IMG/VR virus record: IMGVR_UViG_3300014159_000001
Span: 6,199-70,198 of that record
Length of the DNA: 64,000 bases
Direction: 5' to 3' (one strand)
Source: a virus
Taxonomy: Duplodnaviria; Caudoviricetes
In this document: piece by piece, positions 13,744-47,963 of the stretch
How the letters are laid out: each line of letters begins with the position of its first letter
How positions within the stretch are numbered: the first letter of the stretch is position 1
Made by a program: the position numbers and the translations under genes
The notes under the pieces: model-generated
Seen by the model: the letters and a program-made list of their open reading frames with translations, nothing else
Told to the model about the DNA's origin: nothing
Databases searched by the model: none

Positions 13744-14370
13744 TTGCCGACCTACGCTAGCACCTCGATCCGCCTCCGGCTCTCCAACGTCTCGAAGCCG
13801 CAAGGGCGGCTCGTCGACGAGGAGACGGCGGAGAGGCCGGAGATCTTCGCGACCCAGCCGCTGACGATCGCCTTCGCGGTCTTCGACGCCTACGACGACG
13901 TCGTCGACCTCTCGAACATCTCCTACGTGGAGGCGGACTTCGTCAACGACCCGGAGTGCGGCGAGATCCTCGCTTCGTCCTCGATCCTCGCCGCGGCGCT
14001 GACGCCCCTCATCCCGGTCGCCGCTTGGCTCGACGGGACGGAGGATCAGGGCGAGATCGGGTTCACGACGGACCAGCTCGCCGCGTTGACCGGCCGGCGC
14101 GCGTGGCTCGTTGTCCGGGGCCTGACCGCGGCCGGCAACGTGATCATCTTCGGGGCCGGGTGGGTCAACGTCCGGCCGTCCGGCGCCCCCGCCGCCGTCT
14201 ACCTCCCGCTCTCCCCCGTCCCGGCGATCATCCCGGCCGGCGCGATCTACGAGATCCCCGCCGGCGTCGTCGTCATCTTCCCGACCTCCCCGCAGATCCT
14301 CGGCGAGTTGATCTGCGACCCAGCCGAGGGCGACCTCCCGCCCGGGGCTTTCACGATCATCTCCGCCTAA
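13744..14370 (+). CDS. Hypothetical beta-rich structural protein
   Basis: 208 aa with a TTG start and phage codon usage. Confidence 0.55.
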   Translation: MPTYASTSIRLRLSNVSKPQGRLVDEETAERPEIFATQPLTIAFAVFDAYDDVVDLSNISYVEADFVNDPECGEILASSSILAAALTPLIPVAAWLDGTEDQGEIGFTTDQLAALTGRRAWLVVRGLTAAGNVIIFGAGWVNVRPSGAPAAVYLPLSPVPAIIPAGAIYEIPAGVVVIFPTSPQILGELICDPAEGDLPPGAFTIISA

Positions 14371-14384
14371 CCAAGGACACGCCC

Positions 14385-14888
14385 ATGCCAGCACAAGGTC
14401 TCCTCATCCCGCTAATCGACCCGACGACCGTCACCGTCCCGCCCGCCGGCAAGATCTCGCTGGTCGTCAACCTCTCCGGCCTCCTCACGGTCATCAAGTC
14501 CGACGGCTCGATCAACCCGATCTCGCCGACGAACCAGACGTCGGACGAATCGGACGCGAGCTCCGTCTCCGCCAACATGAACATCGGGCCGGGGAGCGGC
14601 CTACACACCGCGAGCGTCGTCGTCACGGGGCTCGCGAGCGTCCGGACCTTCTCGCTCGTCAACGTCGGGCTCTCCGAGCTCAACGCGGGCTGGCGGATCA
14701 GGGTCTTCTTCGACCTCTCCGTCGCGGTCGCGGGGATCACGCTCGAGGTCTTCGACGGCAACACGCTCGGGACCGAGCTCTTCAACTACGTCACCGACGG
14801 CACCCAGAAATCGGCCTATGGAGACTTCTATTGGACCGGCACCAACTGGAAGGCCGTCGGCTCGGCCGTCCCGGCGATCAACGCATAG
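14385..14888 (+). CDS. Hypothetical structural protein
   Basis: AAGGA RBS followed by ATG, starting MPAQGLLIPL. Confidence 0.6.
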   Translation: MPAQGLLIPLIDPTTVTVPPAGKISLVVNLSGLLTVIKSDGSINPISPTNQTSDESDASSVSANMNIGPGSGLHTASVVVTGLASVRTFSLVNVGLSELNAGWRIRVFFDLSVAVAGITLEVFDGNTLGTELFNYVTDGTQKSAYGDFYWTGTNWKAVGSAVPAINA

Positions 14889-14899
14889 GGAGACCACCA

Positions 14900-17272
14900 A
14901 TGAACAAGAAGATCCTCGCGCTCCTCCTCTCGGCCCTCGCGCCGGCCGCCTTCGGACAGATAACGGTCACGAAGACCTCCGGGACGAACGTCGTCGACAA
15001 CGGCCCCATCGTAATCGGCTCCGGCAACTCGGTCACGTTCCTCTCCGGCTCCTCGCTCAACCTCGAGAACGGGGCCTCGCTCGGCAACGCGCTCCCGTGG
15101 TCCGCCCTCTCCGGCATCCCGAGCCCGGCGTTTGTCGCGAGCGGCGACGCGTCCGGCAACGGGACACTCTCCGCCTCCGGGCCTGGCGCGCTCCCGCTGA
15201 CGCTCGCCGTCTCCGGCGTGACGGCGGGGACCTACGGCGACGCGACGCACGTCCCGCAGTTCGCCGTCGACGCCAAGGGCCGCGTGACCGGCGTGACCTC
15301 AGTGGCGATCGCGGAGACGGGCGTCCTCTTAACGGCGAACAACCTCTCGGAGCTCGTCGGGAGCGCCTCGACCGCCCGGGGCAACCTCGGCGTCGCGATC
15401 GGGACGAACGTCGAGGCGTGGTCCGTCACGCTCGACTCGTTCGCCTCCGCCGGCAACGCCCCATCCTACTACCTCAACGCCGCGAACCTGACGGGGACCC
15501 TCCCGGCCGCGCGGCTCCCGGCGTTCACCGGCGACGCGACCGCCCCGGGCGGCTCCGCGGCATTGACCCTCGCCTCGACCGCCGTCTCCGCCGGCTCCTA
15601 CGGGGACGCGAGCCACGTCGGGACGTTCACGGTCGACGCGAAGGGCCGGTTGACCGCGGCCTCGAACGCGGCGATCGCGATCACGGAGCCGTGGACCTCC
15701 CTCTCCGGCGTCCCGAACTCCGTCTGGACATTGACCGGGGACGTCACCGGGACGATCACGACGAGCGCCCTCGCGAGCGCGAGCGGCGGGACGACCCTCG
15801 CGAACTCGGGCGTCACGTCCGGGACCTACGGCTCGGCGACGCAGAGCTTGACGGCGACGGTCGACTCCAAGGGCCGCGTGACCGCGCTCTCGGCCCAAAC
15901 CGTGACGCCCCCGTGGTCCTCGATCTCCGGGAATCCGATCTCGGTGACGGCCCTCAAGACGGTCGTCTTCTCGAACACGCTCACGTTCGCGGGGACCGAC
16001 GGCGCGACGCTCAACGTCGGGGCCGGCGGAAGCCTCGGGAGCGCGGCGTTTACGGGCTCGGGCTCGTACGCGCCGCCGACGAGCGGCTCCGCTATCCTCT
16101 ACGGGAACGGCTCCGGCGGGTTCTCGAACGTGACCGTCGGCTCGAACCTCTCCTTCAACGCGGGGACGCTCGCCTACTCCGGGCCCCTCGGGGGCGGGAC
16201 GGTCCTGAGCGTCGGCTCCGGCACCGGATTGACCGGGGGGCCGATAACGAGCTCCGGCTCCCTCTCCATCTCATCGGCCTACGCCGGAAACGGGATCGGG
16301 ACGGTCAACGGGTTCGCCTATGGCAACGGCTCCGGGACAATCACGTCCGTGACCGTGGGCTCCGGACTGGTGCTTGCGGGAGGGTCGATCTCGCTTCCGA
16401 CCTCGATCGCATCAATGGGCGTGACGAACGGCTCGACGATCGACTCGTGGGGGACGAAGACGGTCCCGGCCGGGACAGTCGCGGACCTCTCGAGCGCGCA
16501 GGCGTTCACGAACAAGACGATCGCGGGCGGGTCGAACACGATCACGGGGATCGGCAACACCTCGTTGACGAACTCCTCGATTACCATCGCCGGATCGGCG
16601 ACGGCTCTCGGCGGCTCGATCACGCTCGACGGGATCACGGGGCTCTCGACGACGGGGCTCGTCAAGCGGACCGGGGCGAACACCCTCGCGATCGCGACGG
16701 CGGACACGGACTACTCGACGCCGGCGGGGACCGAGACCCTGACGAACAAGACCTATGACACGGCCGGGACCGGGAACGTCTTCGACGTCAACGGCCGGGG
16801 GATCACCGGCTACTCCGGGACGAACAACACCGTGGCCTTGACCGGCTCCCCGGCGTTCTCCGGGACCCCGACGACGCCGAACGCCTCGGCGTTGACGGAC
16901 AACACGCAAGTCGCGAACACGGCCTATGTCGACTCGGCCGTCGCGGCGGCGCAGTTGATGACGATCAACAACCAAGGGAGCGGGACGTACACGCTCCAGC
17001 TATCCGACGCGAACGCCCTGATCCGGCACCCGAGCGCGGACACGAACGCCCGGAGCTGGGTAATCCCCGCGAACGCCTCCGTCGCCTTCCCGATCGGGAC
17101 CGTCGTCTCCTTCTACAACCAACCGAGCGCGGGGACGATCACGCTCTCGATCACGTCCGACACGTTGACGACGGCGAACTCGGGCGCGACGGGCGCGGTG
17201 ACGATCCTCGCGGGGCACACCGCGTCGATGGTCAAGGACGCCTCGACGAGCTGGATCCTGAACCTCAACTGA
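14900..17272 (+). CDS. Long tail-fibre-like protein with signal peptide
   Basis: Starts [20 protein letters not shown]. Three 'G(T/S)YG...VD(A/S)KGR' fibre repeats and a C-terminal 'YTLQLSD...[13 protein letters not shown]' domain. Confidence 0.75.
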
Positions 17273-22886: not shown

Positions 22887-23924
22887 ATGAAAGAGAATGA
22901 ACCCCCCGCGTCGGGCGCGGCCGAACCGGCCCCCGGCTACCTCGTCAAGATCGACCAAGTCGCGCTCGAGCATTTCCGGCAGGCGACCGTGGTCGCGAAC
23001 ATCTGCAAGGAGATCGTCCTCAAGACGACGAAGAAGATCGGCTTCAAGAACTACGTGAAGGTCGAGGGCTGGACGTCGATCGCCGTCGCGCACGGCTGCG
23101 TCGCCTCGATCAAGCCGGGCTCCGTCCGGGAGATCCTCCGGGAAGGGCACGTCGTCGGCTTCGAGGCGGTCGCCGATATCCGGAGGCAGTCGGACGGCGT
23201 GGTCCTCTCCGAGGCCGTCGGCTACGTCGGCGACGACGAGATGGTCTGGTTCGGGTCGAAGGGCGTCGCGGTCGAGCGCTGGAACGACTCCAAGAAGAAG
23301 AAGGAGATGGTCGTGATCCCGAAGCGCGCCGACTACGCGATCCGGGCGATGGCGCAGACGCGGGCGATCTCGCGGGTCTGCCGCTCCGCGTTCTCGCACG
23401 TCGTCGTCTTGATGAACGCCGGCCTCTCCACGGTCCCGGCCGAGGAGGTCGAGGGCCCGGAGGACTTCACGGAAGTCGAGGCGCGCGAGGCCGACGCCCC
23501 CGCGGGAGAGCGCCGCGTCGAGCCCGCGGCCGATCCGGGCCCGCCGCCGGAGAGCAACGCCGGGAAGCCGGCGACGAACGCCGGGGCCGAGAAGTCGACC
23601 GCGCCCGCGGCCGAGAAGAAGCCGGCCGCCGAGGCGAAGCGGCCGGTCGAGGTCCCGCGCGACCCGAGCGTCGAGTTCCAGAAGCAGTTCGTCGACGGGG
23701 CGTGGAAGAAGGTCAAGGTGCACTTCGGGACGAACAACGGCAAGAAGCTCGAGGACCTGACGGACAATCAGCTCCGCTGGTACGCCTACGACTGGAGCGG
23801 GGGCGGCCGGGCCGCGACGGAGAAGTTCGCCGCGAAGCCGCCGACCGAGGACGACAAGATCCTCCGCGCCGCGGCGGTCGTCGCGGCCGCCGAGCTCGGG
23901 CTCGAGCCTCGAGCCTCTTCCTAA
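22887..23924 (+). CDS. Single-strand annealing protein (RecT/ERF-like) with a small C-terminal domain
   Basis: 'YAIRAMAQTRAISRVCR...TVPAEEV' is an SSAP-type motif, followed by an Ala/Pro linker and 'VHFGTNNGKKLEDL...LRWY'. Confidence 0.62.
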   Translation: MKENEPPASGAAEPAPGYLVKIDQVALEHFRQATVVANICKEIVLKTTKKIGFKNYVKVEGWTSIAVAHGCVASIKPGSVREILREGHVVGFEAVADIRRQSDGVVLSEAVGYVGDDEMVWFGSKGVAVERWNDSKKKKEMVVIPKRADYAIRAMAQTRAISRVCRSAFSHVVVLMNAGLSTVPAEEVEGPEDFTEVEAREADAPAGERRVEPAADPGPPPESNAGKPATNAGAEKSTAPAAEKKPAAEAKRPVEVPRDPSVEFQKQFVDGAWKKVKVHFGTNNGKKLEDLTDNQLRWYAYDWSGGGRAATEKFAAKPPTEDDKILRAAAVVAAAELGLEPRASS

Positions 23925-23958
23925 ACCCGCCGCGCAACCCATCAACCCGACCAAACTC

Positions 23959-25944
23959 ATGAACCACCTGCGACTCATTTCAATCGGGGCCCGGAACTTG
24001 AAGGGCCTCTCGTTCGATCTCGACCTCAAGCCGGCGACCTTCCTCGTCGGCCCGAACTACGTCGGCAAGACGGCCCGCGCCGACGCGATCCGGCTCCTCC
24101 TCGTCGGGCACCTCCCGGAGCTCGGCAAGACGAACGCCGCGACCTTCGGCCTCTCTTCGGGGAAGGAGCTCGAGGTCCACGGCGTCTTCGAGGACGCGGA
24201 GGGCCAAGGCTACCCGGTCTCCCGGCGCTGGTTCCTCAAGGGCGACTCCGTCAAGGCCGAGGAGGACTTCCCTCCGAACTTCGCGGCCGAGGGGCTGGTC
24301 GAGGTGATGCTCAACGCCGAGAGCTGGTTCGGCAAGACCGAGCGCGAGCGCGTGGAGTGGGTGTATGCGAACGCCGCGGTCTCGACCGAGATCCCGCGCG
24401 AGCAGATCGTGACGGACCTCCTCGAGAAGGTCCTCAAGGACGACCCGAGCTATGACCCGACCGTCCGCGACGAGCTCTTCAAGAGTTTCCTCGCGATCGT
24501 CGCCGCGGACGAGGAGGAGCACGGGCCGTTCACGACGGCGGACTTCGTCAACTCCGCGCTCGAGGCGTTTGAGCGCACCGCGAAGCAGGAGCGCGACCAC
24601 GCGGTCCGGATGGACAAGACGGTCTCCGGGCTCGCCGGCCTCCGGGCCGCGGACGCGCCGGTCGCCGACGCCCGCGAGATCGAGGCGCGGATACGCAAGC
24701 TCGACGACGAGCTCGCCAAGCTCCGCGACGACCGGGGCCGGGCCTCGGCCGCGGCGGACGCGCAGCGCGCGAACGCGCGCCGGGTGCGCGCGCTCAAGGA
24801 CGCGCTCGCCGGGAAGGAAACTCTCGGGGCCCGGAAGGGTGACGCCATCCTCCGGATCGGCAACCTCAAGGACCAGCTCGCGGCGCTCCCGGCGATCGCG
24901 CAGGGCGACATCGACGAGCTGCGCAAGGAGCTCCTCGACGAGAGCCTAACCGAGAGGAGCCTCGCGCGTGATTTGACCGAGCTGTCTCGGGAATGGACCC
25001 GCGTCGAGGGCGAGAAGCTCGAGATCTCCGGCAAAACGTCTTGCCCATATTGCGGGGCCGCGGGCGAGGGCTGGAAGGCCCTCAAGCTCGCCGAGATCGA
25101 GGCCGCGATCGCGGGCCTCTCCGCCAAGCGCGAGGACCTGTTCTACCGTCATGAGAACTCCGCTACGGCCGTCGCGACCTACAACGACCGGCTCGTCGCC
25201 AAGGTCCGCGCCTTCACCGAGAGGACGGAGCTCCGGGAACGGATGCGGATCGCCGAGGACAACCTCTCGAAGATCGAGCTCGAGCTCGCCGCCCTCTCCG
25301 GGAAGTCCGAGGAGCTCGCCGCGATCCCCGCCGACGACCCCGCCGTCGAGCAGCGGCCGAACGAGTTCCTCTGGGAGATCAACACCAAGCAGGCGGAGCT
25401 CGACAAACTCGATGGTGAGCGCCGGGCGATCCTTGGCCGCTCGAACGACCTCAAGCGGCTCGCCGAGGCCGAGAAGGGCCGGGACGACGCCCGGGCGTGC
25501 GAGCGGATCGCGAAGGCGGCCGCCGCGGCGCTCCGGGACGTCAAGGCGCGGATGGTCGGCGACGCCTTCGGGCCGATCCTCGAGCTCGCGAACCGCTTCT
25601 GCGGCCCGCTCCTCCCGACGCTGCTCGAGTTCGACGTCGCCCGCGCCGAGATCGGCACGCGCCGCGGCGGCCTCTGGGTCGGACACAAGACCTTTTCGGG
25701 CGTCGAGAGGCTCCTCGCCTACGCGGGGATTCAGGCGGCGTTCGCGTCGCGGGCCCCGCTCCGCGTGATGATCCTCGACGAGATGCTCCGGGCCGACGCC
25801 GACGTCTTTCCGAAGCTCGTCCGGGCGTGCAAGGACGCCGTCCGCAACGGCCTCGTCGACAACTTCGTCGGGATAATACCCGCCGCGGCGATGACCTTCA
25901 TGGAGTTCGCGGACGAGGCTTGCCAACTCGTGGAGATCTCCTAG
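23959..25944 (+). CDS. Rad50/SbcC-like SMC ATPase
   Basis: Walker A GPNYVGKT, coiled coils, central CPYC zinc hook, signature FSGVE, Walker B MILDE. Confidence 0.85.
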   Translation: MNHLRLISIGARNLKGLSFDLDLKPATFLVGPNYVGKTARADAIRLLLVGHLPELGKTNAATFGLSSGKELEVHGVFEDAEGQGYPVSRRWFLKGDSVKAEEDFPPNFAAEGLVEVMLNAESWFGKTERERVEWVYANAAVSTEIPREQIVTDLLEKVLKDDPSYDPTVRDELFKSFLAIVAADEEEHGPFTTADFVNSALEAFERTAKQERDHAVRMDKTVSGLAGLRAADAPVADAREIEARIRKLDDELAKLRDDRGRASAAADAQRANARRVRALKDALAGKETLGARKGDAILRIGNLKDQLAALPAIAQGDIDELRKELLDESLTERSLARDLTELSREWTRVEGEKLEISGKTSCPYCGAAGEGWKALKLAEIEAAIAGLSAKREDLFYRHENSATAVATYNDRLVAKVRAFTERTELRERMRIAEDNLSKIELELAALSGKSEELAAIPADDPAVEQRPNEFLWEINTKQAELDKLDGERRAILGRSNDLKRLAEAEKGRDDARACERIAKAAAAALRDVKARMVGDAFGPILELANRFCGPLLPTLLEFDVARAEIGTRRGGLWVGHKTFSGVERLLAYAGIQAAFASRAPLRVMILDEMLRADADVFPKLVRACKDAVRNGLVDNFVGIIPAAAMTFMEFADEACQLVEIS

Positions 25945-25972
25945 CGTCGAGGCCCCTCAACTCATCAACGCC

Positions 25973-27754
25973 ATGAACTTCACGACCCCTCAAGCCGAGG
26001 CGATCGGGACGACCTCGCTCAACGCCCTCGTGGTCGCCGGGCCCGGCTCCGGCAAGACCTCGACCCTAACGGCCCGGATCGAGGCGATCCTCGAGGCCGG
26101 CTTCGATCCGAAGGCGATCGCGGTCCTCTCCTTCACAAACGCCGCGGCGAACGAGCTCGCGCGGAGGTTGACCAAAGAGGTGCCGAAAGGGACCGTCCTC
26201 GCTCACCCCGTCGGGCCCGAGGTCAACGGGATAAGCCGCGAGGGCGTCCAGCTCGGCTTCCTCGGGACGCTCCACTCGTTCGCGCTCCACTGCCTCAAGC
26301 GGCACGGCGAGCCGTTCGGGTACGGGCGGCGGACGGCGATCATCTCGCCGGAGTCGGCCGAGGATCTGATGGCCTCGAAGGCGACCTCGCTCGGCTGCAA
26401 CGTCCCGCTCAAGAAGCTCCTCGAGGCGAAGGCGCGCGACGGCCGGCCCCCGCGAGGGAAGCGGCTCTCGCTCGTCGAGACGGTGATCGCGACCTACCTC
26501 GACGAGCTCCGCGAGGCGCGCGTCGTCGACTACGACGTCCTCCTTCAGGAGTTCCGCGAGATGTTGACGTCGACGGACCCGAACGCGCTCTCGGCGCAGC
26601 AGGAGATCGAGCGCGCCTTCTCGCACCTCTTCGTCGACGAGGTGCAGGACTCGGCCGCGATCGACTGGGACATCTACCGCGCGCTCCCGATCGGGACGAA
26701 GTTCTACGTCGGCGACCCGGACCAGAACCTCTACGAGTTCCGCGGGGCCCGCGTCCGCGAGATGGTCCGCGAGGCCGGCGACTCGAGGACGGCCGTCTTC
26801 AAACTCGAGGAGAACTTCCGGTCGGACGTCGCGATCTGCGCCGCGGCGCAGCGCCTCGTTGCCAACAACCGGACCCGCGTCGACAAGGAGACGCGGCCGG
26901 TCTCCGAGGACCCCGGCTCGGTCGTACTCCTCGGCGAGTTCGAAAACGAGGGGGAGGAGATCGCCGTCGTCTCGCGTGAGATCAAGGCGCTCGGCTACGA
27001 GCCGGCGCGGCTCAAGGAGATCGCCGTCCTCGCCCGGACGAACGCGATCGCCGAGGGCTTCCGGAGGACGCTCCCGAACGCTGAGATTCCGGTCGTCGGC
27101 CTCAAGCATCACGAGCTCCCGAGGGACTGGGCGCTCGCGCGGTCCTACGTCGAGCTCCTGCTCGACCCGGACAACGACGCGCTCGCGTACTTCTACCTCG
27201 TCTCGAAGTTGACCCTCTCCGGCCGGGGCCCGGCCGCGGCGCGCCGCGAGGCTCAACGGATGCGCGTCGAGGCGAACGCCGCCGACCTCTCGATCAACGC
27301 ACGCTTCCTCAACCGGATGGAGCCCGTCGCGCTCCCGTCGACCGCCCTGACCGCCCTCTCCCGCGCCGGGACCTCCCGGGAAGCGCAGATGATCGCGGTC
27401 GAGAAGTGGCGCGAGCTACCCCCCGGGGCCGGGATGGACGACTTCGCCCTCGCGCTCGCCTCCGTCTACGATTACTCCAAGGAGGAGGAGGGCGATGGGG
27501 TCCACGTCTTGACGATGCACGGGGCGAAGGGCCGCGAATGGGACGCCGTCTTCCTCGTCGGGATGGAGGACGAGACGATCCCGGGCCGGGCCGACGACGC
27601 GGACGCGATCGAGGCCGAGCGCCGGGTCGCCTACGTCGCCCTAACCCGGGCCCGGCACGCCGCCTTCCTCTCCTCCGTCAAGTCCCGCGTGACCCCGTGG
27701 AAGCAGGTCGTCGCGCGCCGGCCGAGCCGTTTCCTCAAGGAGATCCTGCCGTGA
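25973..27754 (+). CDS. UvrD/Rep-family SF1 helicase
   Basis: 'AGPGSGKT', 'FVDEVQD', 'VGDPDQNLYEFRGA', 'LEENFRS', 'TMHGAKGREW', 'EAERRVAYVALTRA'. Confidence 0.93.
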   Translation: MNFTTPQAEAIGTTSLNALVVAGPGSGKTSTLTARIEAILEAGFDPKAIAVLSFTNAAANELARRLTKEVPKGTVLAHPVGPEVNGISREGVQLGFLGTLHSFALHCLKRHGEPFGYGRRTAIISPESAEDLMASKATSLGCNVPLKKLLEAKARDGRPPRGKRLSLVETVIATYLDELREARVVDYDVLLQEFREMLTSTDPNALSAQQEIERAFSHLFVDEVQDSAAIDWDIYRALPIGTKFYVGDPDQNLYEFRGARVREMVREAGDSRTAVFKLEENFRSDVAICAAAQRLVANNRTRVDKETRPVSEDPGSVVLLGEFENEGEEIAVVSREIKALGYEPARLKEIAVLARTNAIAEGFRRTLPNAEIPVVGLKHHELPRDWALARSYVELLLDPDNDALAYFYLVSKLTLSGRGPAAARREAQRMRVEANAADLSINARFLNRMEPVALPSTALTALSRAGTSREAQMIAVEKWRELPPGAGMDDFALALASVYDYSKEEEGDGVHVLTMHGAKGREWDAVFLVGMEDETIPGRADDADAIEAERRVAYVALTRARHAAFLSSVKSRVTPWKQVVARRPSRFLKEILP

Positions 27755-30619: not shown

Positions 30620-30977
30620 GATCCTCGAGCGCCCCCGGACCGCGGCGGCCCCGTTCGACTGCCCGCTCCGCTACTGGGTCCCCTCCGCGCGGGACCCGAG
30701 GGAGAAATACCTCGTCGAGCTCGACTCCTACGGGGGCAACGGCGCGTGCGTCTGCAAGCACTTCGCGATGCGCTGCGAGCCGCTCCTCCGCCGGATGATC
30801 TCGCCGCGCGAGGCGGTCCGGACTGGCGCGATCAAGCTCAAGGTCAACCGGCACGTCGAGGACGCCTTGAGGTGCGAGCACATCATCACGGCGCGGTCGC
30901 AGTTCGTCGACGACGTCCTCGCCGCGATCGCGAAGCGCAACAACCACCAGACGCGGAGGGAGGACCGCGCGCCGTGA
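30612..30977 (+). CDS. SWIM-type zinc-finger protein
   Basis: 'YLVEL......ACVCKHF' followed by 'CEHI' (CxC...CxH). Confidence 0.6.
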   Translation: MPEILERPRTAAAPFDCPLRYWVPSARDPREKYLVELDSYGGNGACVCKHFAMRCEPLLRRMISPREAVRTGAIKLKVNRHVEDALRCEHIITARSQFVDDVLAAIAKRNNHQTRREDRAP

Positions 30978-31261
30978 TCCGCCGCCGCAAGCCGCTTCGG
31001 AGGAAGACGCCGATCCGCCGGATCTCGGCGAGACAGCTCATTCAGTATCGCCAGTATCTAAAGCAGCGCGCCGCCTTCCTCGCCGCGAACGTCTATTGCG
31101 AGTGCTTTCCGTGCAAGAACCGGAGCCGCGACGTCCACCACACGCGGGGCCGCGGCCGCTACCTCCTCGACGAATCGACGTGGATGGCGGTTTGCCGAGC
31201 GCATCACGACTGGATCCACGGGCACCCGCGCGAGGCCCGCGAGAAGGAGTGGCTCCGGTGA
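30974..31261 (+). CDS. Small HNH-like (NinG-type) nuclease
   Basis: 'CECFPC...DVHHTRGRG...AVCRAHHDWIH'. Confidence 0.65.
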   Translation: MIRRRKPLRRKTPIRRISARQLIQYRQYLKQRAAFLAANVYCECFPCKNRSRDVHHTRGRGRYLLDESTWMAVCRAHHDWIHGHPREAREKEWLR

Positions 31262-32492: not shown

Positions 32493-32704
32493 ACGCTGCA
32501 GCCAAGATCCGCGCCGCGATGCGCGCCAACGAGCGCGAGATCCTCAAGAGCGCCCGCCGGCGGCCCGTCGGCGAACTTTGGCAACCCGCGAGCCGCGCGT
32601 GGTGGAACGCCCTCAAGCGCCTCGAGGCCCGCGGCCTCCTTCGCTACGATAGCAGGGCCGGAGCTTATCTCTACGTTAGCCCTAGGGAGAGGAGGGCCCC
32701 GTGA
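32489..32704 (+). CDS. Small basic hypothetical protein
   Basis: GTGA overlaps at both ends. Confidence 0.55.
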   Translation: MNAAAKIRAAMRANEREILKSARRRPVGELWQPASRAWWNALKRLEARGLLRYDSRAGAYLYVSPRERRAP

Positions 32705-35289
32705 ACGCCGCCGCTTGCTCCGACCATCCCGCTTGCCTCGCCGAGGTTCTCGGTTCGCTCAAGTGGAGCGCCCCCCGCGAGGTCAACACGAAGCGCGGCC
32801 CGAAGACCGTCACCTCGGCCGAGATCCCGAACGAGGCCGCCTTCAACCGGCTCGGCGAGCTCCGTGACGAGCTCTACCGCGGCGGCTACTCGGTCTCCCA
32901 GTTCCGCGGCGTCTGGCAGGTCTCCCGGTGGTCCGACCCGGCCCCGGAGGTCGTCAAGGCGCGCGAGGAGGCCCGCGCGCTCTCCCGGGCGACGGACGCC
33001 GACGTCGACGTCCCGACCCCTCCCGGCCTCGCCTTCCTCGGCTACCAGAAGGCGGGGATCAAGTTCGCCCTCGACCGCCCGGCGGTCCTCTTCGGAGACG
33101 AGATGGGGCTCGGCAAGACGATGCAGGCGATCGGCGTCCTCAACGCCTCGCCCGCCGCGCGCCGCGTCCTCGTCATCTGCCCGGCCTCGCTCAAGCTCAA
33201 CTGGGCCCGCGAGCTTCGGAAGTGGTCCGTCGTCGAACTAGATATAACGGTTGTTTCGGCGCAGGAGCGTAGTCGCGCGAAGCGCCTCCTCCGCTCTCTT
33301 GCGCTTGACGATCAGGAACGGAAGGACGCAACGAAGGACGGCCTCGATGTCGCGAGCGCGGCCAACAGACCAGCCGAACTGATCGCGGTTGCCTCGAATC
33401 CCGAAGCGGGCGTTTCTCGCGAGCGTCGCGGCTCGGCGAAGGTGGGAGAGGCCGCCGAGCTTGCAAAGCCAAACCATCAAGGGCTCGCTCGTCGAGTAGA
33501 CGCAAACGCCCCATCGGCCTTTGCTCTTGATGAAGGAGATCGAGCCCTCCCCGTCGATGATTCCCGCCAGATAGGCGCGATCCGCAACGCGAACCGGGCG
33601 GACGAAGGGAACGGAGACTCGATTCCGACGGAGGCGCGCCCGAAGGTCACCCCGGCGCGCGAGGTTGTAGTAGAGGGTGTTCGGGTGGACGCCGAGCTCG
33701 GAGGCGAAAGACCGGACGCTCCGCTTGCGGGCGTTGACCAGAGCGATGATTCGATCGAGAACGGACTCGGGAAGACGGAAGGCGCGCGGCATATCGTAGT
33801 TGTTAACTACGACGTGTTACATCTTTTCCAAGAAGAGACAAGAGCGATCGCGTGGGACCTTCTAATATGCGACGAGGCTCACTACCTCAAGACCCCGAAG
33901 GCGCGCCGGACGCAGATGGTCTTCGGCCGGAAGGCGACGGCGAAGACGGCCGGCCTCCCGCCGATCGGCGCGAAGCGCCGGCTCCTGCTAACCGGGACCC
34001 CGATCGCGAACCGCCCGGTCGAGCTCTTCCCGTTGATCGAGTACCTCGACCCGGCGACGTGGGGGAACTTCTTCAAGTACGCCCGCCGCTATTGCGACGC
34101 GCACCAGATCTCCATCGGCCGCGGCCGGCTCGCGTGGGACTTCTCCGGGGCCTCGAACCTCGAGGAGCTTCAGGAGAGGCTCCGGACGACGATTCTCGTC
34201 CGCCGGCTCAAGCGCGACGTCTTGACCGAGCTCCCCCCGAAGCGCCGGCAGGTGATCGAGCTCCCCGCGGAGGGCGAGCTCGCCCGGTTCGCCGAGGCGG
34301 AGCGCGCCGCCTACGAGGACCGCGAGGCCGAGCTCGACCAGCTTCACGCCGCCGTCGAGCTCGCGAAGGCGTCGGAGGACCCGGACGAATACAAGCGCGC
34401 CGTCGAGAACCTCAACGACGGGATCGCCGCCTTCTTCGCCGAGATGTCGACCCTCCGCCGCGAGCTCGCCGAGGCGAAGATCCCGGCGATCGTCGAGCAC
34501 GTCCGCGAGGCGGTCGAGGAGGGCGGCAAGCTCGTCGTCTTCGCGCACCACCGCGCCGTTTGCAAGGCGATCGCCGCCGAGTTCGGCGACGCCGCGGTCG
34601 TCCTCGTCGGCGAGACGCCGACCGCCGACCGGCAGGCCGCGGTCGACCGCTTCCAGACGGACCCGGCTTGCAAGGTCTTCGTCGGCTCGATCATGGCGGC
34701 CGGCGTCGGGATCACGCTCACGGCCGCGTCGCACGTAGTCTTCGCCGAGCTCGACTGGGTCCCGGGGAACGTGACGCAGGCCGAGGACCGGCTCCACCGG
34801 ATCGGCCAGCGCGAGCACGTCCTCGTCCAGCACCTCGTTGTCGACGGCTCGCTCGATGCGACGATGGCGAAGCGGATCGTCGAGAAGCAGAACATCATCG
34901 ACCGGGCGCTCGACTCCGTCCGCGCCTCGATCGAGGGCGTCCCGATCTCGGCCCCGTCCCGCAAGGGCGGCGACGCCGCGACGGCGGACGTCACGGTCGA
35001 CGCGCTCGCGGCCGAGGCCGCGGCGATGACGGACGACCAGCGCGCCGCGGTCCTCGAGGCGCTCCGGTTCCTATCGGCCCGGGACTCGGATCACGCGCAG
35101 TTCGAGAACCAGATCGGCTTCAACGGCCGGGACACGATCATCGGCCACTCCCTGGCGGAGCGGAGCTCGTTGACCGCGAAGCAAGCGGCGCTCGGCCGGC
35201 GGATCGTCCGCAAGTACCGGCATACGCAGCTCCCGGAGGCGATCGTCGAGCGGATAGGGTTTCCCGAGAAGAAGGGAGGCGCGTCGTGA
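32701..35289 (+). CDS. SNF2-family (SF2) helicase with an insertion of roughly 165-185 aa in RecA domain 1
   Basis: 'YQKAGI', 'GDEMGLGKT', 'CPASLKLNW', 'VNYDVL', 'CDEAH', 'LTGTPIANRP', 'VFAHHR', 'GVGITL', 'QAEDRLHRIGQ'. Confidence 0.93.
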   Translation: MNAAACSDHPACLAEVLGSLKWSAPREVNTKRGPKTVTSAEIPNEAAFNRLGELRDELYRGGYSVSQFRGVWQVSRWSDPAPEVVKAREEARALSRATDADVDVPTPPGLAFLGYQKAGIKFALDRPAVLFGDEMGLGKTMQAIGVLNASPAARRVLVICPASLKLNWARELRKWSVVELDITVVSAQERSRAKRLLRSLALDDQERKDATKDGLDVASAANRPAELIAVASNPEAGVSRERRGSAKVGEAAELAKPNHQGLARRVDANAPSAFALDEGDRALPVDDSRQIGAIRNANRADEGNGDSIPTEARPKVTPAREVVVEGVRVDAELGGERPDAPLAGVDQSDDSIENGLGKTEGARHIVVVNYDVLHLFQEETRAIAWDLLICDEAHYLKTPKARRTQMVFGRKATAKTAGLPPIGAKRRLLLTGTPIANRPVELFPLIEYLDPATWGNFFKYARRYCDAHQISIGRGRLAWDFSGASNLEELQERLRTTILVRRLKRDVLTELPPKRRQVIELPAEGELARFAEAERAAYEDREAELDQLHAAVELAKASEDPDEYKRAVENLNDGIAAFFAEMSTLRRELAEAKIPAIVEHVREAVEEGGKLVVFAHHRAVCKAIAAEFGDAAVVLVGETPTADRQAAVDRFQTDPACKVFVGSIMAAGVGITLTAASHVVFAELDWVPGNVTQAEDRLHRIGQREHVLVQHLVVDGSLDATMAKRIVEKQNIIDRALDSVRASIEGVPISAPSRKGGDAATADVTVDALAAEAAAMTDDQRAAVLEALRFLSARDSDHAQFENQIGFNGRDTIIGHSLAERSSLTAKQAALGRRIVRKYRHTQLPEAIVERIGFPEKKGGAS
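33238..33792 (-). CDS. LAGLIDADG homing endonuclease with N-terminal HTH, nested antisense in the helicase gene
   Basis: 'RAYLAGIIDGEGSISF' motif, 'YSTSEPLMVWL', 'VLPFLIVKRKRAEEAL', and HTH 'VRSFASELGVHPNTLYYNL'. The span coincides with the non-homologous helicase insertion. Confidence 0.88.
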   Translation of the reverse strand: MPRAFRLPESVLDRIIALVNARKRSVRSFASELGVHPNTLYYNLARRGDLRARLRRNRVSVPFVRPVRVADRAYLAGIIDGEGSISFIKSKGRWGVCVYSTSEPLMVWLCKLGGLSHLRRAATLARNARFGIRGNRDQFGWSVGRARDIEAVLRCVLPFLIVKRKRAEEALRATTLLRRNNRYI

Positions 35290-46136: not shown

Positions 46137-46215
46137 CTCAAGTCGACGTCATGCTCCTCTCCGGTTCCGTCTGGGAGCACAAGTGGGCGCTTCGGTCCGG
46201 CGTCGAGAAGACCCG

Positions 46216-46485
46216 ATGGTTTGCCCCTACTCGCCCTACTCGAAACCCGCGAGCATCGTGATCATGATCGACGACCCGGACATCCTCGAGGCGCTCGGAC
46301 AACGGGGCGACACGATCACGCTCCGCTATTCGATCAAGCGGCTCGTCGACGACTTCATGGCGATCGGCGGATGGGACGACGAGGGGATGCTCCGGCTCGT
46401 CCTCGCGTGGGAATCGGCCGCGAAGAGGTTCCGGGCCGATTACGAGAAGGGCAAGCAACTCGCCGCGACCGCCGAAAGCAAATGA
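46216..46485 (+). CDS. Hypothetical protein
   Basis: Its stop overlaps the TerL ATG. Start uncertain. Confidence 0.45.
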   Translation: MVCPYSPYSKPASIVIMIDDPDILEALGQRGDTITLRYSIKRLVDDFMAIGGWDDEGMLRLVLAWESAAKRFRADYEKGKQLAATAESK

Positions 46486-47963
46486 CTGACGCCCCGCCCT
46501 CCCCGGTCTCATCGCCCGGGCCGGAGCCCGGGATGCCCGAGGACCACCTCTCCTTCTGGGAGTATTTCTCCGAGTTCTTCGTCCCTCTCAACCGGCTCAA
46601 CCTCCCTCTCCACGAGCCGCACCGCGAGATCGCCGAGGCGCTCGAGGCCGCTTACCTCGGCGCGCTCGACCCGTGGATCCAGTTCATCGCGGTGACGATG
46701 CCCCCGCGGACCGGGAAGACGAAGCTGAACGAGGGGCTCGCGACGTGGGGGCTCGGCTACTACCCGGAGAGCCAGATCATCTTGACCTCGTACTCGCAGG
46801 ACCTCGCGGAGCTCTCCCTCTCCTACTGCGACAAGACGATCAAGGAAGGATGGTATCAAGGCTGGTTCGGGGACCACGTCCACGGGGTGACGGCCGATCA
46901 CCTCTCGACGATCGAGGGCGGGAACATCTACGCGGAGGGCGTCTTCGGCTCGCTCCTCGGCAAGGGCGCGGGCTTGAAGGAGCCGGCCGGCGGCTACCTC
47001 GGGCTCGACGACCCGGCGAAGATCGAGCAGGCGCTCTCGCGCGGCGTCGCGAAGAAGCTCGAGCTCTGGTTCGAGACGACCCTGATCAACCGGCGCAACT
47101 CGGACCGCTTCTGCCCGATCATAATCATCGCGCAGCGCGCCGGCTTGACCGACCTGATCGAATACCTACGGACGACCTACAAGCGCGAGACCCTCGTCCT
47201 CAAGTTCCCGTGCTTCGTCGGCCGGCGCTCCCGGTTCCCGGAGACGTACTCGGACGACCGGCTCCCGATGCTCGAGCGGACGCGGATCGGGCGGTTCACG
47301 CTCGCGGCGCTCCTCCAGCAGGAGCCGATCGCGCTCGGCGGGAACATGATCCCGGTCGACAAGTTCCTCCGCTACTCGCCGGCGGACCGCCTCCTCGCGT
47401 GGGACGACAAGATCGTCGTCTGCGACACGGCGCTCAAGAAGGGCGAGGGCAACGACTGGTGGGTCCTCCAATGCTGGGGCCGCGTCGGCCGGAGTTGCTA
47501 CCTCCTCGCCTCCTCGAGGACGCAGTGCAACTCGGCGGAGTTCATCCGGGAGGCGGCGGCGTTCTGGCTCCGGCAAACGACGGCGCAGGAGCATCACCCG
47601 GTCTCGCGGTTCATAATCGAGGATTCGGCCGCGGGCCCGGGCGTGATCTCCGCGCTCAACGAGGCGGGCATCCCGGCGACCCCGATCATCCCGATCAAGG
47701 ACAAGGCGGCGCGGGTCAACGACGTCCTCCCGTTCATCGAGACGGGGTGCGTCTACCTCCCGAAGGACGACGACCCGGAGGCCCCGTGGCTCCCCGACCT
47801 CCTCCTCGAGATGAGCGCCTTCACGCAAGACCTCACGCACGAGCACGACGATCAGGTCGACTGCGTCGCCTACGCCTTGAGCGAGCTCCTCGGCGCGGGC
47901 CTCTCGATCCTCCAAGTCCTCGGCGTCGCGCCGGCGAACCTCCCGTTCCTCCCGATGGGTTGA
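46482..47963 (+). CDS. terL: Terminase large subunit
   Basis: Walker A 'MPPRTGKT', 'LTSYSQDLA', Walker B-like 'GLDDP', 'IIIAQR', nuclease 'CDTA.K.GEGND', 'IEDSAAG', 'HDDQVDCVAYA'. Confidence 0.92.
   Translation: MTDAPPSPVSSPGPEPGMPEDHLSFWEYFSEFFVPLNRLNLPLHEPHREIAEALEAAYLGALDPWIQFIAVTMPPRTGKTKLNEGLATWGLGYYPESQIILTSYSQDLAELSLSYCDKTIKEGWYQGWFGDHVHGVTADHLSTIEGGNIYAEGVFGSLLGKGAGLKEPAGGYLGLDDPAKIEQALSRGVAKKLELWFETTLINRRNSDRFCPIIIIAQRAGLTDLIEYLRTTYKRETLVLKFPCFVGRRSRFPETYSDDRLPMLERTRIGRFTLAALLQQEPIALGGNMIPVDKFLRYSPADRLLAWDDKIVVCDTALKKGEGNDWWVLQCWGRVGRSCYLLASSRTQCNSAEFIREAAAFWLRQTTAQEHHPVSRFIIEDSAAGPGVISALNEAGIPATPIIPIKDKAARVNDVLPFIETGCVYLPKDDDPEAPWLPDLLLEMSAFTQDLTHEHDDQVDCVAYALSELLGAGLSILQVLGVAPANLPFLPMG

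What the first reader, a model, noticed from the sequence alone, without database searches (positions are those of the whole stretch)
33238..33792. LAGLIDADG homing endonuclease hidden antisense inside an uninterrupted SNF2 helicase ORF
Seen in sequence: between motif Ia (NWARELRKW) and 'IVVVNYD', the helicase carries roughly 165-185 residues that do not look like protein. The exact reverse complement of that stretch, in codon register, is a complete ORF with an HTH and 'AYLAGIIDGEGSI'. Its stop overlaps helicase codons E-L-D and its ATG overlaps R-H-I. The + frame stays open throughout, and by my count none of the 21 Leu and 12 Ser codons of the nuclease is TTA, CTA or TCA. The helicase codons just downstream (33793-33870) switch to A/T-ending codons, like a co-conversion tract or an embedded antisense promoter. 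There is no intein signature (no terminal HN-C/S/T) and no room for a group I ribozyme. Established knowledge: intragenic homing endonucleases normally avoid harming the host gene through an intron or intein, or they split it (Aeh1 mobE in nrdA). Inference: this may be a further strategy, with antisense in-frame insertion into a tolerant loop so the host protein simply carries the complementary-strand peptide. Caveat: in-register antisense frames are often open by chance at high GC.
Basis: partly seen in the sequence, partly recalled or inferred. Interest (0 to 1): 0.88.

Follow-up and report, generated by a model that had tools for sequence, protein, structure and literature searches.

The report
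Backwards nuclease gene read through by helicase
A selfish DNA-cutting (homing endonuclease) gene sits backwards inside a phage helicase gene with no intron or intein, and its codons are chosen so the helicase frame never meets a stop, which probably leaves the helicase carrying a floppy 175-residue loop.

Summary
Window 33238-33792 (-) is an intact 184-aa ORF with an N-terminal HTH and one I-CreI-type LAGLIDADG domain. It lies in codon register inside the uninterrupted 862-aa SNF2 helicase ORF (32701-35289, +).

In this 68% GC phage alone the open frame could be chance (P about 0.2-0.46). Comparative data argue against chance:
- The two closest HEG relatives (41% and 50% GC phages) and a fourth helicase (P0129) carry the same backwards insert at the same loop, with the frame open.
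- About 30 insert-less relatives have a 6-10 residue loop there.
- Across the HEG family, copies antisense to their neighbours have lost TTA/CTA/TCA (16 of 21). Sense copies (0 of 21) and bacterial copies (0 of 65) have not.

The insert is the HEG ORF and nothing else. There is no Hint domain, no C/S/T at +1 and no ribozyme. AlphaFold gives a confident helicase core with a disordered loop.

My best reading is a bare antisense HEG that the host translates through. The concept was published for out-of-frame HNH genes (ShiLan domain, 2025) and for antisense LAGLIDADG genes in inteins and capsid introns. This scan has also met a methylase case and the capsid-intron "mirror frame". I therefore call it a new variant of a known kind. 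No expression or activity data exist.

The parts
32701..35289 (+). SNF2-family helicase ORF, 862 aa including the insert. Motif I GLGKT is at 33106-33120 and motif II DEAH at 33871-33882.
   Evidence: Pfam SNF2-rel_dom 4e-33 (two stretches) and Helicase_C 2e-13. PHROG 62 DNA helicase 1e-107. All family-invariant motif residues are present. The AF2 core has pLDDT >90.
33238..33792 (-). Homing endonuclease gene, 184 aa, in codon register with the helicase frame.
   Evidence: ORF. PHROG 5046 2e-11. Family profile against PDB: I-MsoI/I-CreI 1e-12 to 3e-25. AF2 pLDDT 87. Foldseek top hits I-CvuI/I-CreI, prob 1.0. It is absent from the 5.8-billion predicted-protein collection, although the read-through helicase is there.
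33655..33768 (-). N-terminal helix-turn-helix domain of the HEG (residues 9-46).
   Evidence: Three helices H9-20, H26-33 and H37-46. Weak Pfam HTH_30/HTH_17/HTH_38 hits. Shared with the L002 and L003 HEGs.
33256..33588 (-). LAGLIDADG core (residues 69-179). Motif YLAGIIDGEGS is at 33541-33573. The invariant P158/K163 align by my reading with I-CreI P93/K98.
   Evidence: Alpha-beta-beta-alpha-beta-beta-alpha order of elements. Family invariants G77 D80 G81 E82 G83 P158 K163. The I-CreI numbering is from my own knowledge.
33262..33789 (.). Inserted DNA proper (boundaries within about 9 nt). In the + frame it gives about 175 residues (helicase 188-362) of hydrophilic, unstructured peptide.
   Evidence: Alignment with 12 insert-less relatives. 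pLDDT <50 for residues 214-359. GRAVY -0.74 and no hydrophobic segment. No Pfam family even at E<=10.
33238..33261 (.). Overlap zone. The last 7 HEG codons (RRNNRYI) and its TAG stop lie antisense to native helicase codons L-D-I-T-V-V-S-A (beta-strand after motif Ia). The rare Leu codon CTA supplies the HEG stop.
   Evidence: The same layout is seen in L002 and L003, where a Ser TCA codon 3-6 codons after the conserved KW supplies the stop. CTA is 0.37% of codons in this phage.
33793..33876 (+). Helicase codons I365-E392 with A/T-ending and rare codons (GTA, GTT, TTA, CAA, ACA, AGA, CTA, ATA). They lie directly upstream of the HEG start in HEG orientation. Candidate co-conversion tract or HEG 5' control region.
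   Evidence: GC3 0.54 against 0.96. Codon list. No dip in relatives. No sigma-70 consensus. TTA occurs only 4 times in 8406 codons of the phage.

Best explanation
The element is a bare mobile homing-endonuclease gene: an N-terminal HTH plus one I-CreI-type LAGLIDADG domain that presumably works as a homodimer. It has homed into a conserved site of phage SNF2 helicase genes, in the short loop between the beta-strand after motif Ia and the strand ending in NYD before motif II. It points against the helicase.

The element carries no ribozyme and no protein-splicing domain. It is tolerated because it is in codon register with the host and never uses TTA, CTA or TCA. Ribosomes on the helicase mRNA therefore read straight through and make one polypeptide, in which about 175 residues of hydrophilic, disordered 'mirror' peptide replace a 6-10 residue surface loop.

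The nuclease would be made from its own antisense transcript. The A/T-rich helicase codons just upstream of its ATG are either its control region or a co-conversion tract from a lower-GC donor.

Shown here: the anatomy, the recurrence at one site, the selection for the open frame, and the absence of splicing modules. Inferred: translation through the insert, activity of the loop-bearing helicase, and current activity and expression of the nuclease.
For: 1. Same site and same orientation, with the host frame open, in four diverged helicases: the window, L002 (41% GC), L003 (50% GC) and P0129.

2. Probability that synonymous codon choice alone leaves the frame open: 0.21, 2e-4 and 0.012. The three HEGs are only 30-35% identical, so silent sites are scrambled and the openness must be maintained.

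3. About 30 insert-less relatives have a 6-10 residue loop at the site. The insert-bearing helicases are scattered on the helicase tree, and the window is sister (99% support) to the insert-less L082.

4. Family-wide test. Antisense-oriented HEGs have at most 1 TTA/CTA/TCA codon in 16 of 21 loci. Sense-oriented copies do so in 0 of 21 (Fisher P = 2.4e-7). Bacterial or archaeal chromosomal copies do so in 0 of 65.

5. The insert equals the HEG ORF, and helicase-homologous residues abut it on both sides.

6. No splicing module was found. There is no Rfam hit, no Pfam Hint domain in the helicase or the insert peptides, and no Intein_splicing match anywhere in the 70-kb genome in six frames. The +1 residue is Ile in all three.

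7. AF2 gives a helicase core with pLDDT >90 on both sides and an insert at about 30. The insert peptide is hydrophilic.

8. All helicase motifs downstream of the insert are intact, with native GC3 of 0.96.

9. The genome is complete, with terminal repeats. Both junctions are seen in contigs from two further samples.

10. The HEG is intact, with the family-invariant catalytic-site residues and an I-CreI-like fold.
Against: - There is no RNA, protein or activity evidence. The metatranscriptome contigs cover only helicase parts outside the insert and cannot show strand or splicing.
- In the window alone the open frame is compatible with chance.
- L002's helicase carries an in-frame TAA inside Walker A, so at least one insert-bearing helicase may be dead.
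- P0129 is known only as a protein, so its antisense HEG is inferred from the mirror-peptide profile match.
- No promoter or Shine-Dalgarno sequence for the HEG was found.
- A 175-residue loop in RecA lobe 1 could impair the ATPase.
- The helicase's essentiality is unknown.
Confidence: 0.7

Rival explanations
1. The frame is kept open for ribosome transit, not to make a working fusion protein. Selection would act to keep ribosomes on the host-strand mRNA, avoiding Rho-dependent polarity or mRNA decay, as in the capsid-intron relatives. The helicase with the loop may be impaired or dispensable, or the benefit may lie mainly in expression of what is downstream.
For: In about 15 capsid-gene loci the same HEG family is antisense inside what look like group I introns of the major head protein gene. 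Its mirror frame is stop-free there even though it is not in frame with the exons. So openness is selected even where no fusion protein results. Many mirror ORFs have their own ATG, and some have SD-like sequences.
Against: In all helicase cases the mirror frame is in frame with both host flanks, which transit alone does not require. The helicase motifs after the insert are conserved. In the helicase, the two explanations predict the same sequence features.
Confidence: 0.14
2. The open frame is chance in a recently disrupted or dispensable helicase. Under this reading, high GC keeps the antisense frame open and the helicase is on its way to decay.
For: P(open) is 0.21-0.46 in this phage. The L002 helicase has a stop in Walker A. 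Nothing shows that the helicase is needed.
Against: The arrangement recurs at 41% and 50% GC with P = 2e-4 and 0.012, and in a fourth helicase. All helicase motifs are intact and GC3 is native downstream. The stop-codon avoidance depends on orientation across the family. The same allele occurs in three samples.
Confidence: 0.07
3. The insert is removed by an unrecognised mechanism: a cryptic intron overlapping the HEG coding sequence, a non-canonical intein, or translational bypass. The mature helicase would then lack the loop.
For: Relatives of this HEG do live in introns (LittleE-type capsid introns, PMC3706429) and in inteins (bioRxiv 10.1101/2025.01.02.630785). Rfam misses compact phage introns: the L045 hit scores only 21.7 bits.
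Against: No non-HEG sequence is left in the insert for a ribozyme or a Hint domain. There are no Rfam, Pfam or six-frame intein hits. Ile at +1 excludes canonical protein splicing. If the insert were spliced at the RNA level, an in-frame stop-free design would be unnecessary. About 530 nt is far beyond known ribosomal bypass (my own knowledge).
Confidence: 0.06

Closest known systems
ShiLan domain and the Pacc40 gp60 insertion in actinophage DNA methylases (Arsenault, Gosselin & Gogarten 2025, Genes 16:178, PMC11855218)
   Same: Both are sporadically distributed insertions in a phage enzyme gene with no stop in the host frame and no intein or intron features. Both have an in-frame peptide predicted as an unstructured loop, and a hidden homing endonuclease in another reading frame.
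   Different: There the nuclease is an HNH on the same strand in a shifted frame. Here it is a LAGLIDADG on the opposite strand in exact codon register, in an SNF2 helicase. The constraint here reduces to avoiding three codons. Here it recurs at one site in four helicase lineages spanning 41-68% GC.
Inteins with an antisense LAGLIDADG endonuclease (Synechocystis DnaX, Chloroflexus SpoVR-like; actinophage minor capsid inteins; Gorbalenya 1998 and Gogarten 2002, as cited in bioRxiv 10.1101/2025.01.02.630785)
   Same: A LAGLIDADG gene lies on the antisense strand and the host frame stays open across it.
   Different: Those are flanked by Hint splicing domains that excise the mirror peptide. Here no Hint domain or junction residues exist, so the peptide should stay in the mature protein.
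Mycobacteriophage LittleE major capsid group I intron with a bottom-strand LAGLIDADG ORF (Pope et al. 2013, PMC3706429)
   Same: A backwards LAGLIDADG gene sits inside an important phage gene. The capsid-gene loci found here (L012, L045 and others) look like this kind and belong to the same HEG family.
   Different: There RNA splicing was shown by RT-PCR and the intron has several hundred nt of ribozyme. The helicase insert has none.
Aeromonas phage Aeh1 mobE in nrdA
   Same: A HEG inside a conserved enzyme gene, without an intron or intein.
   Different: mobE splits the gene into two polypeptides. Here the host ORF stays single and continuous.

Membership tests
LAGLIDADG homing endonuclease, single-motif I-CreI type | LAGLIDADG motif with a conserved acidic residue at its end | tested here: met
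   YLAGIIDGEGS is at residues 74-84. G77 D80 G81 E82 G83 are invariant in 65 family members.
LAGLIDADG homing endonuclease, single-motif I-CreI type | Alpha-beta-beta-alpha-beta-beta-alpha core fold similar to solved enzymes | tested here: met
   AF2 pLDDT 87. Foldseek hits I-CvuI/I-CreI with prob 1.0 and TM about 0.5 of target. The family profile hits I-MsoI/I-CreI at 1e-12 to 3e-25.
LAGLIDADG homing endonuclease, single-motif I-CreI type | Curated Pfam threshold for a LAGLIDADG family | tested here: inconclusive
   LAGLIDADG_3 scores 20.5 bits against a cut-off of 22.5, E = 6e-4. The single sequence falls just below the cut-off, while the profile and fold evidence are clear.
LAGLIDADG homing endonuclease, single-motif I-CreI type | Site-specific cleavage of the insert-less allele, and homing | not testable with these tools
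   Only indirect evidence is available: an identical insertion site in four helicase lineages and a scattered distribution on the helicase tree.
Intein (including inteins with an antisense endonuclease) | Hint splicing domain flanking the endonuclease region | tested here: not met
   No Hint or intein family was found in the helicase. None was found in the insert peptides of the window, L002 or L003 at E<=10. PF14890 gives no six-frame match in the genome at E<=1. The insert is no longer than the HEG ORF.
Intein (including inteins with an antisense endonuclease) | Junction residues: Cys/Ser/Ala at position 1, terminal His-Asn, and Cys/Ser/Thr at +1 | tested here: not met
   The + frame ends in ...GARH followed by Ile. 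The +1 residue is Ile in the window, L002 and L003.
Group I intron carrying a homing endonuclease | Ribozyme core (P3-P9) outside the ORF | tested here: not met
   No Rfam match at E<=1 in 32500-34500. Helicase-homologous codons abut the HEG ORF on both sides, so no non-ORF insert sequence exists.
Read-through insertion element with a hidden endonuclease (ShiLan type) | Insertion with no stop in the host frame, no splicing module, an endonuclease ORF in another frame, and absence from close homologs | tested here: met
   The differences are the strand (antisense) and the nuclease family (LAGLIDADG rather than HNH).
SNF2-family helicase (host gene) | Motifs I, Ia, II (DEAH), III and VI, and two RecA lobes | tested here: met
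   Pfam SNF2-rel_dom and Helicase_C. Invariant motif residues are present. The AF2 core is confident.

The most novel reading that the evidence does not exclude
Backwards LAGLIDADG homing endonuclease genes may use a general 'ambigram' strategy. By purging just three codons (TTA, CTA, TCA), they stay translatable on the host strand. This would let them live inside important phage genes in three settings: introns, inteins and, as here, with no splicing module at all. On this reading the helicase case shows that neither RNA nor protein splicing is needed for a homing endonuclease to persist inside a conserved enzyme gene.
Probability: 0.5. Interest if true: 0.8.

Novelty: new variant of a known kind. 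Interest (0 to 1): 0.62.

Why it matters
Homing endonucleases are thought to survive inside genes by riding on introns or inteins, or by splitting the gene. If a bare antisense gene is simply read through, there is a third and cheaper route.

It would also have practical consequences. Gene callers annotate the long host ORF and miss the nuclease: this HEG is absent from a 5.8-billion-protein collection, while the fused helicase is present. Hundreds of 'hypothetical proteins' in databases are mirror images of LAGLIDADG genes, with 391 cluster representatives at E<=1e-3.

The orientation-dependent loss of three codons is a simple, searchable signature for finding hidden mobile elements. The site also marks a loop of SNF2 lobe 1 that may tolerate large insertions.

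Tried and rejected
- The word-indexed protein search with the insert peptide found only the window's own helicase.
- The sigma-70 promoter and intrinsic terminator scan of 32900-34200 found nothing on either strand. Manual reading upstream of the HEG ATG gave only 3-4 of 6 hexamer matches and no Shine-Dalgarno sequence.
- Laying contigs of four runs gave no contig that skips the insert, so I saw no insert-less allele and no spliced form. The two listed joints have 21-22 nt sides and are spurious. The RNA run covers only 33813-33998 and 34996-35209 at 0 mismatches. These are contigs, so they say nothing about strand, splicing or transcription of the insert.
- The single variant G>T at 33701 in one depth-2 contig is uninformative.
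Its DNA could therefore not be read.
- L197 (61% GC, 510-aa mirror frame) turned out to be a sense insertion in a TnpB-like gene, so its open frame is chance. The host of L171 is unidentified.
- I tested whether the capsid loci use a recoded stop codon. The stop types are mixed and the frames differ, so I rejected this.
- Segment-wise identity of the A/T-rich flank to other helicases, compared by eye from the aligned sequences, was too weak to decide on co-conversion.
- I did not run complex prediction for HEG dimerisation, because that is a textbook property of the family.
Full report
**Context.** The window is bases 6199-70198 of a 70,198-bp IMG/VR virus record with direct terminal repeats, rated 100% complete. 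It comes from a wetland metagenome. The finding lies in a replication and recombination block that also holds a UvrD-like helicase at 25895-27751 and an AAA_23 protein at 23761-25941.

**Observation.**
- The + strand ORF 32701-35289 (862 aa) is uninterrupted. The - strand ORF 33238-33792 (184 aa) is complete.
- The two are in exact codon register. The nuclease stop TAG is the complement of helicase codon CTA. Its ATG is the complement of CAT, directly before the helicase residues IVVVNYD.
- The helicase matches SNF2-rel_dom (4e-33, in two stretches) and Helicase_C.
- The antisense ORF has weak HTH hits. It scores just under the Pfam LAGLIDADG_3 cut-off and 2e-11 to PHROG 5046.
- A 65-member family profile hits I-MsoI and I-CreI at 1e-12 to 3e-25.
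- The AlphaFold model (pLDDT 87) shows a three-helix N-terminal domain followed by the LAGLIDADG core. Its best structural matches are I-CvuI and I-CreI.
- None of its 21 Leu and 12 Ser codons is TTA, CTA or TCA.
- GC by codon position shows that the - strand frame is the one shaped like a gene of this phage.

**Is the open host frame chance?** In this 68% GC phage alone it could be.
- Given local codon usage, the probability of no TTA/CTA/TCA is 0.21. In real genes, 46% of 185-codon windows have an open mirror frame.
- The relatives settle the question. A scan of viral contigs with the nuclease found 80 loci.
- The two best matches, L002 (41% GC) and L003 (50% GC), also carry the HTH and are 30-35% identical to the window's protein. 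Both sit antisense and in register inside SNF2 helicase ORFs of 794 and 819 residues.
- The alignment places all three inserts at the same point, between the strand after motif Ia and the strand ending in NYD.
- The chance of an open frame there is 2e-4 for L002 and 0.012 for L003.
- I built a profile from 'mirror' peptides and searched 1.84 billion cluster representatives with it. It found 391 proteins. One of them, P0129, is a 1046-residue SNF2 helicase with the mirror of the LAGLIDADG motif at the same site.
- In contrast, about 30 related helicases have only a 6-10 residue loop there.
- On a helicase tree the four insert-bearing genes are scattered. The window's gene is sister, with 99% support, to the insert-less L082. 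This is the pattern expected of a homing element.

**Family-wide signature.**
- Among 63 distinct viral loci, 13 nucleases have no TTA/CTA/TCA codon where 2 were expected, and the distribution is bimodal.
- The stop-free copies are 25-65% identical to one another, so they do not stem from one recent event.
- Orientation explains the split. Copies antisense to their neighbours have at most one such codon in 16 of 21 loci, and sense copies in 0 of 21. This count reclassifies L002 and L003, which my script had mis-scored because it excluded the helicase ORF. Fisher P = 2.4e-7.
- Copies in bacterial and archaeal chromosomes act as a negative control: 0 of 65 at low GC.
- In the metagenome set, 6 of the 7 low-count copies are flanked by opposite-strand ORFs. 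The seventh, L171, has same-strand flanks.

**What the insert is not.**
- Helicase-homologous residues abut the nuclease ORF on both sides in the window, L002 and L003. The insert is therefore the ORF and nothing more.
- The last seven nuclease codons and its stop actually lie antisense to native helicase strand codons. In all three genomes the host supplies the stop through a CTA or TCA codon a few codons after the conserved KW.
- There is no Rfam match.
- There is no Hint or intein family in the helicase or in the insert peptides, even at E<=10. There is no Intein_splicing match in six frames of the whole genome.
- The residue after the insert is Ile, which rules out canonical protein splicing.

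**Structure.** With a 23-sequence alignment, AlphaFold gives a confident helicase core (pLDDT about 90 or higher on both sides). Residues 214-359 sit at pLDDT about 30, between strands 180-185 and 363-369. The insert peptide is hydrophilic (GRAVY -0.74) with no hydrophobic segment. All helicase motifs downstream are intact and have native codon usage.

**Flanks.**
- Codons 33793-33876 have GC3 0.54 against 0.96 for the rest of the gene. They include TTA, which occurs four times in 8406 codons of this phage.
- Insert-less relatives show no dip there.
- Within the helicase, low-GC3 windows occur only at the insert and its two flanks.
- Genome-wide, 3.4% of windows are as low.
- The tract lies just upstream of the nuclease ATG. 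It could be a co-conversion tract from a lower-GC donor or the nuclease's control region.
- No sigma-70 consensus or Shine-Dalgarno sequence was found. I leave this point open.

**Independent samples.** Contigs from a second wetland sample bridge both junctions without a mismatch, and a peat sample bridges the right junction. No contig skips the insert. This excludes an assembly artefact. It says nothing about expression.

**Relation to what is known.**
- Antisense LAGLIDADG genes are on record inside inteins (bioRxiv 10.1101/2025.01.02.630785).
- One is on record in the spliced capsid intron of mycobacteriophage LittleE (PMC3706429).
- A non-splicing, read-through insertion hiding an out-of-frame HNH gene, the ShiLan domain, was described in 2025 (PMC11855218).
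- I found no paper on a bare antisense LAGLIDADG gene read through by its host.
- This scan's own earlier notes report one such case in a methyltransferase, and several capsid-intron cases with a stop-free mirror frame.
- I saw the capsid group independently here. The head protein gene (phrog_1357) is split at profile position about 116 by the backwards nuclease plus roughly 90-100 nt on each side. It gives a weak group I intron hit, and its mirror frame is open but not in frame with the exons.
- The capsid cases show that openness is selected even without a fusion protein, which feeds the main rival reading (ribosome transit). In the helicase, however, the mirror frame is in frame with both host flanks in every case.

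**Caveats.**
- There is no RNA, protein or activity evidence.
- L002's helicase has an in-frame TAA inside Walker A.
- The phage is uncultured and its host is unknown.

**Verdict.** I rate it a new variant of a known kind.

Noticed in passing
L012, L014, L016, L020, L021, L027, L029, L039, L045, L069 (for example L045:3128-4836): The same HEG family sits antisense inside the major head protein gene (phrog_1357), which is split at profile position about 116. There is about 90-100 nt of extra sequence on each side and a weak Intron_gpI hit (L045 3886-4006 -, 21.7 bits). The host-strand mirror frame is stop-free at 35-47% GC but is mostly not in frame with the exons. These are probably LittleE-type group I introns. 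The scan has met this layout before.
   Followed up: partly
L002:4630-4650 (- strand): The insert-bearing SNF2 helicase of L002 has a 9-nt in-frame insertion with a TAA stop inside Walker A (DEMG*IGLGKT). This could be a pseudogene, an assembly variant or a footprint.
   Followed up: partly
P0129 residues about 640-800: This 1046-aa helicase has a second junk-like stretch of about 160 residues in lobe 2, before the conserved ...DGKTSSKKRQ.... It may hide a second out-of-frame or antisense gene.
   Followed up: no
L096-L105 (for example L096:2465-3864): About ten related 45-48% GC contigs have the homologous helicase shifting frame about 55 codons after the NYD strand, right after an A-rich run encoding INKKKAKS. 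This is either a homopolymer error or a programmed shift.
   Followed up: partly
one search hit list (P0002-P0151): There are 391 cluster representatives (138 at E<=1e-10), mostly 130-230 aa 'hypothetical proteins', that match a profile of mirror peptides. They are apparently antisense readings of LAGLIDADG genes that gene callers preferred over the real gene. Several proteins of about 300 aa have two matched stretches.
   Followed up: partly
window 30746-31261 (+): The C-terminal half of this ORF has a Cys/His pattern reminiscent of an HNH nuclease (...CECFPC...HH...CRAHHDWIH...). It gave no Pfam hit at 1e-3, and no PF01844 match was found in the genome.
   Followed up: partly
window 14324-14905 and 46179-46493: These are internal stretches of long ORFs with GC3 <=0.54 in a genome where GC3 is about 0.9. 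I did not examine them. They could be mis-called starts or other foreign inserts.
   Followed up: no
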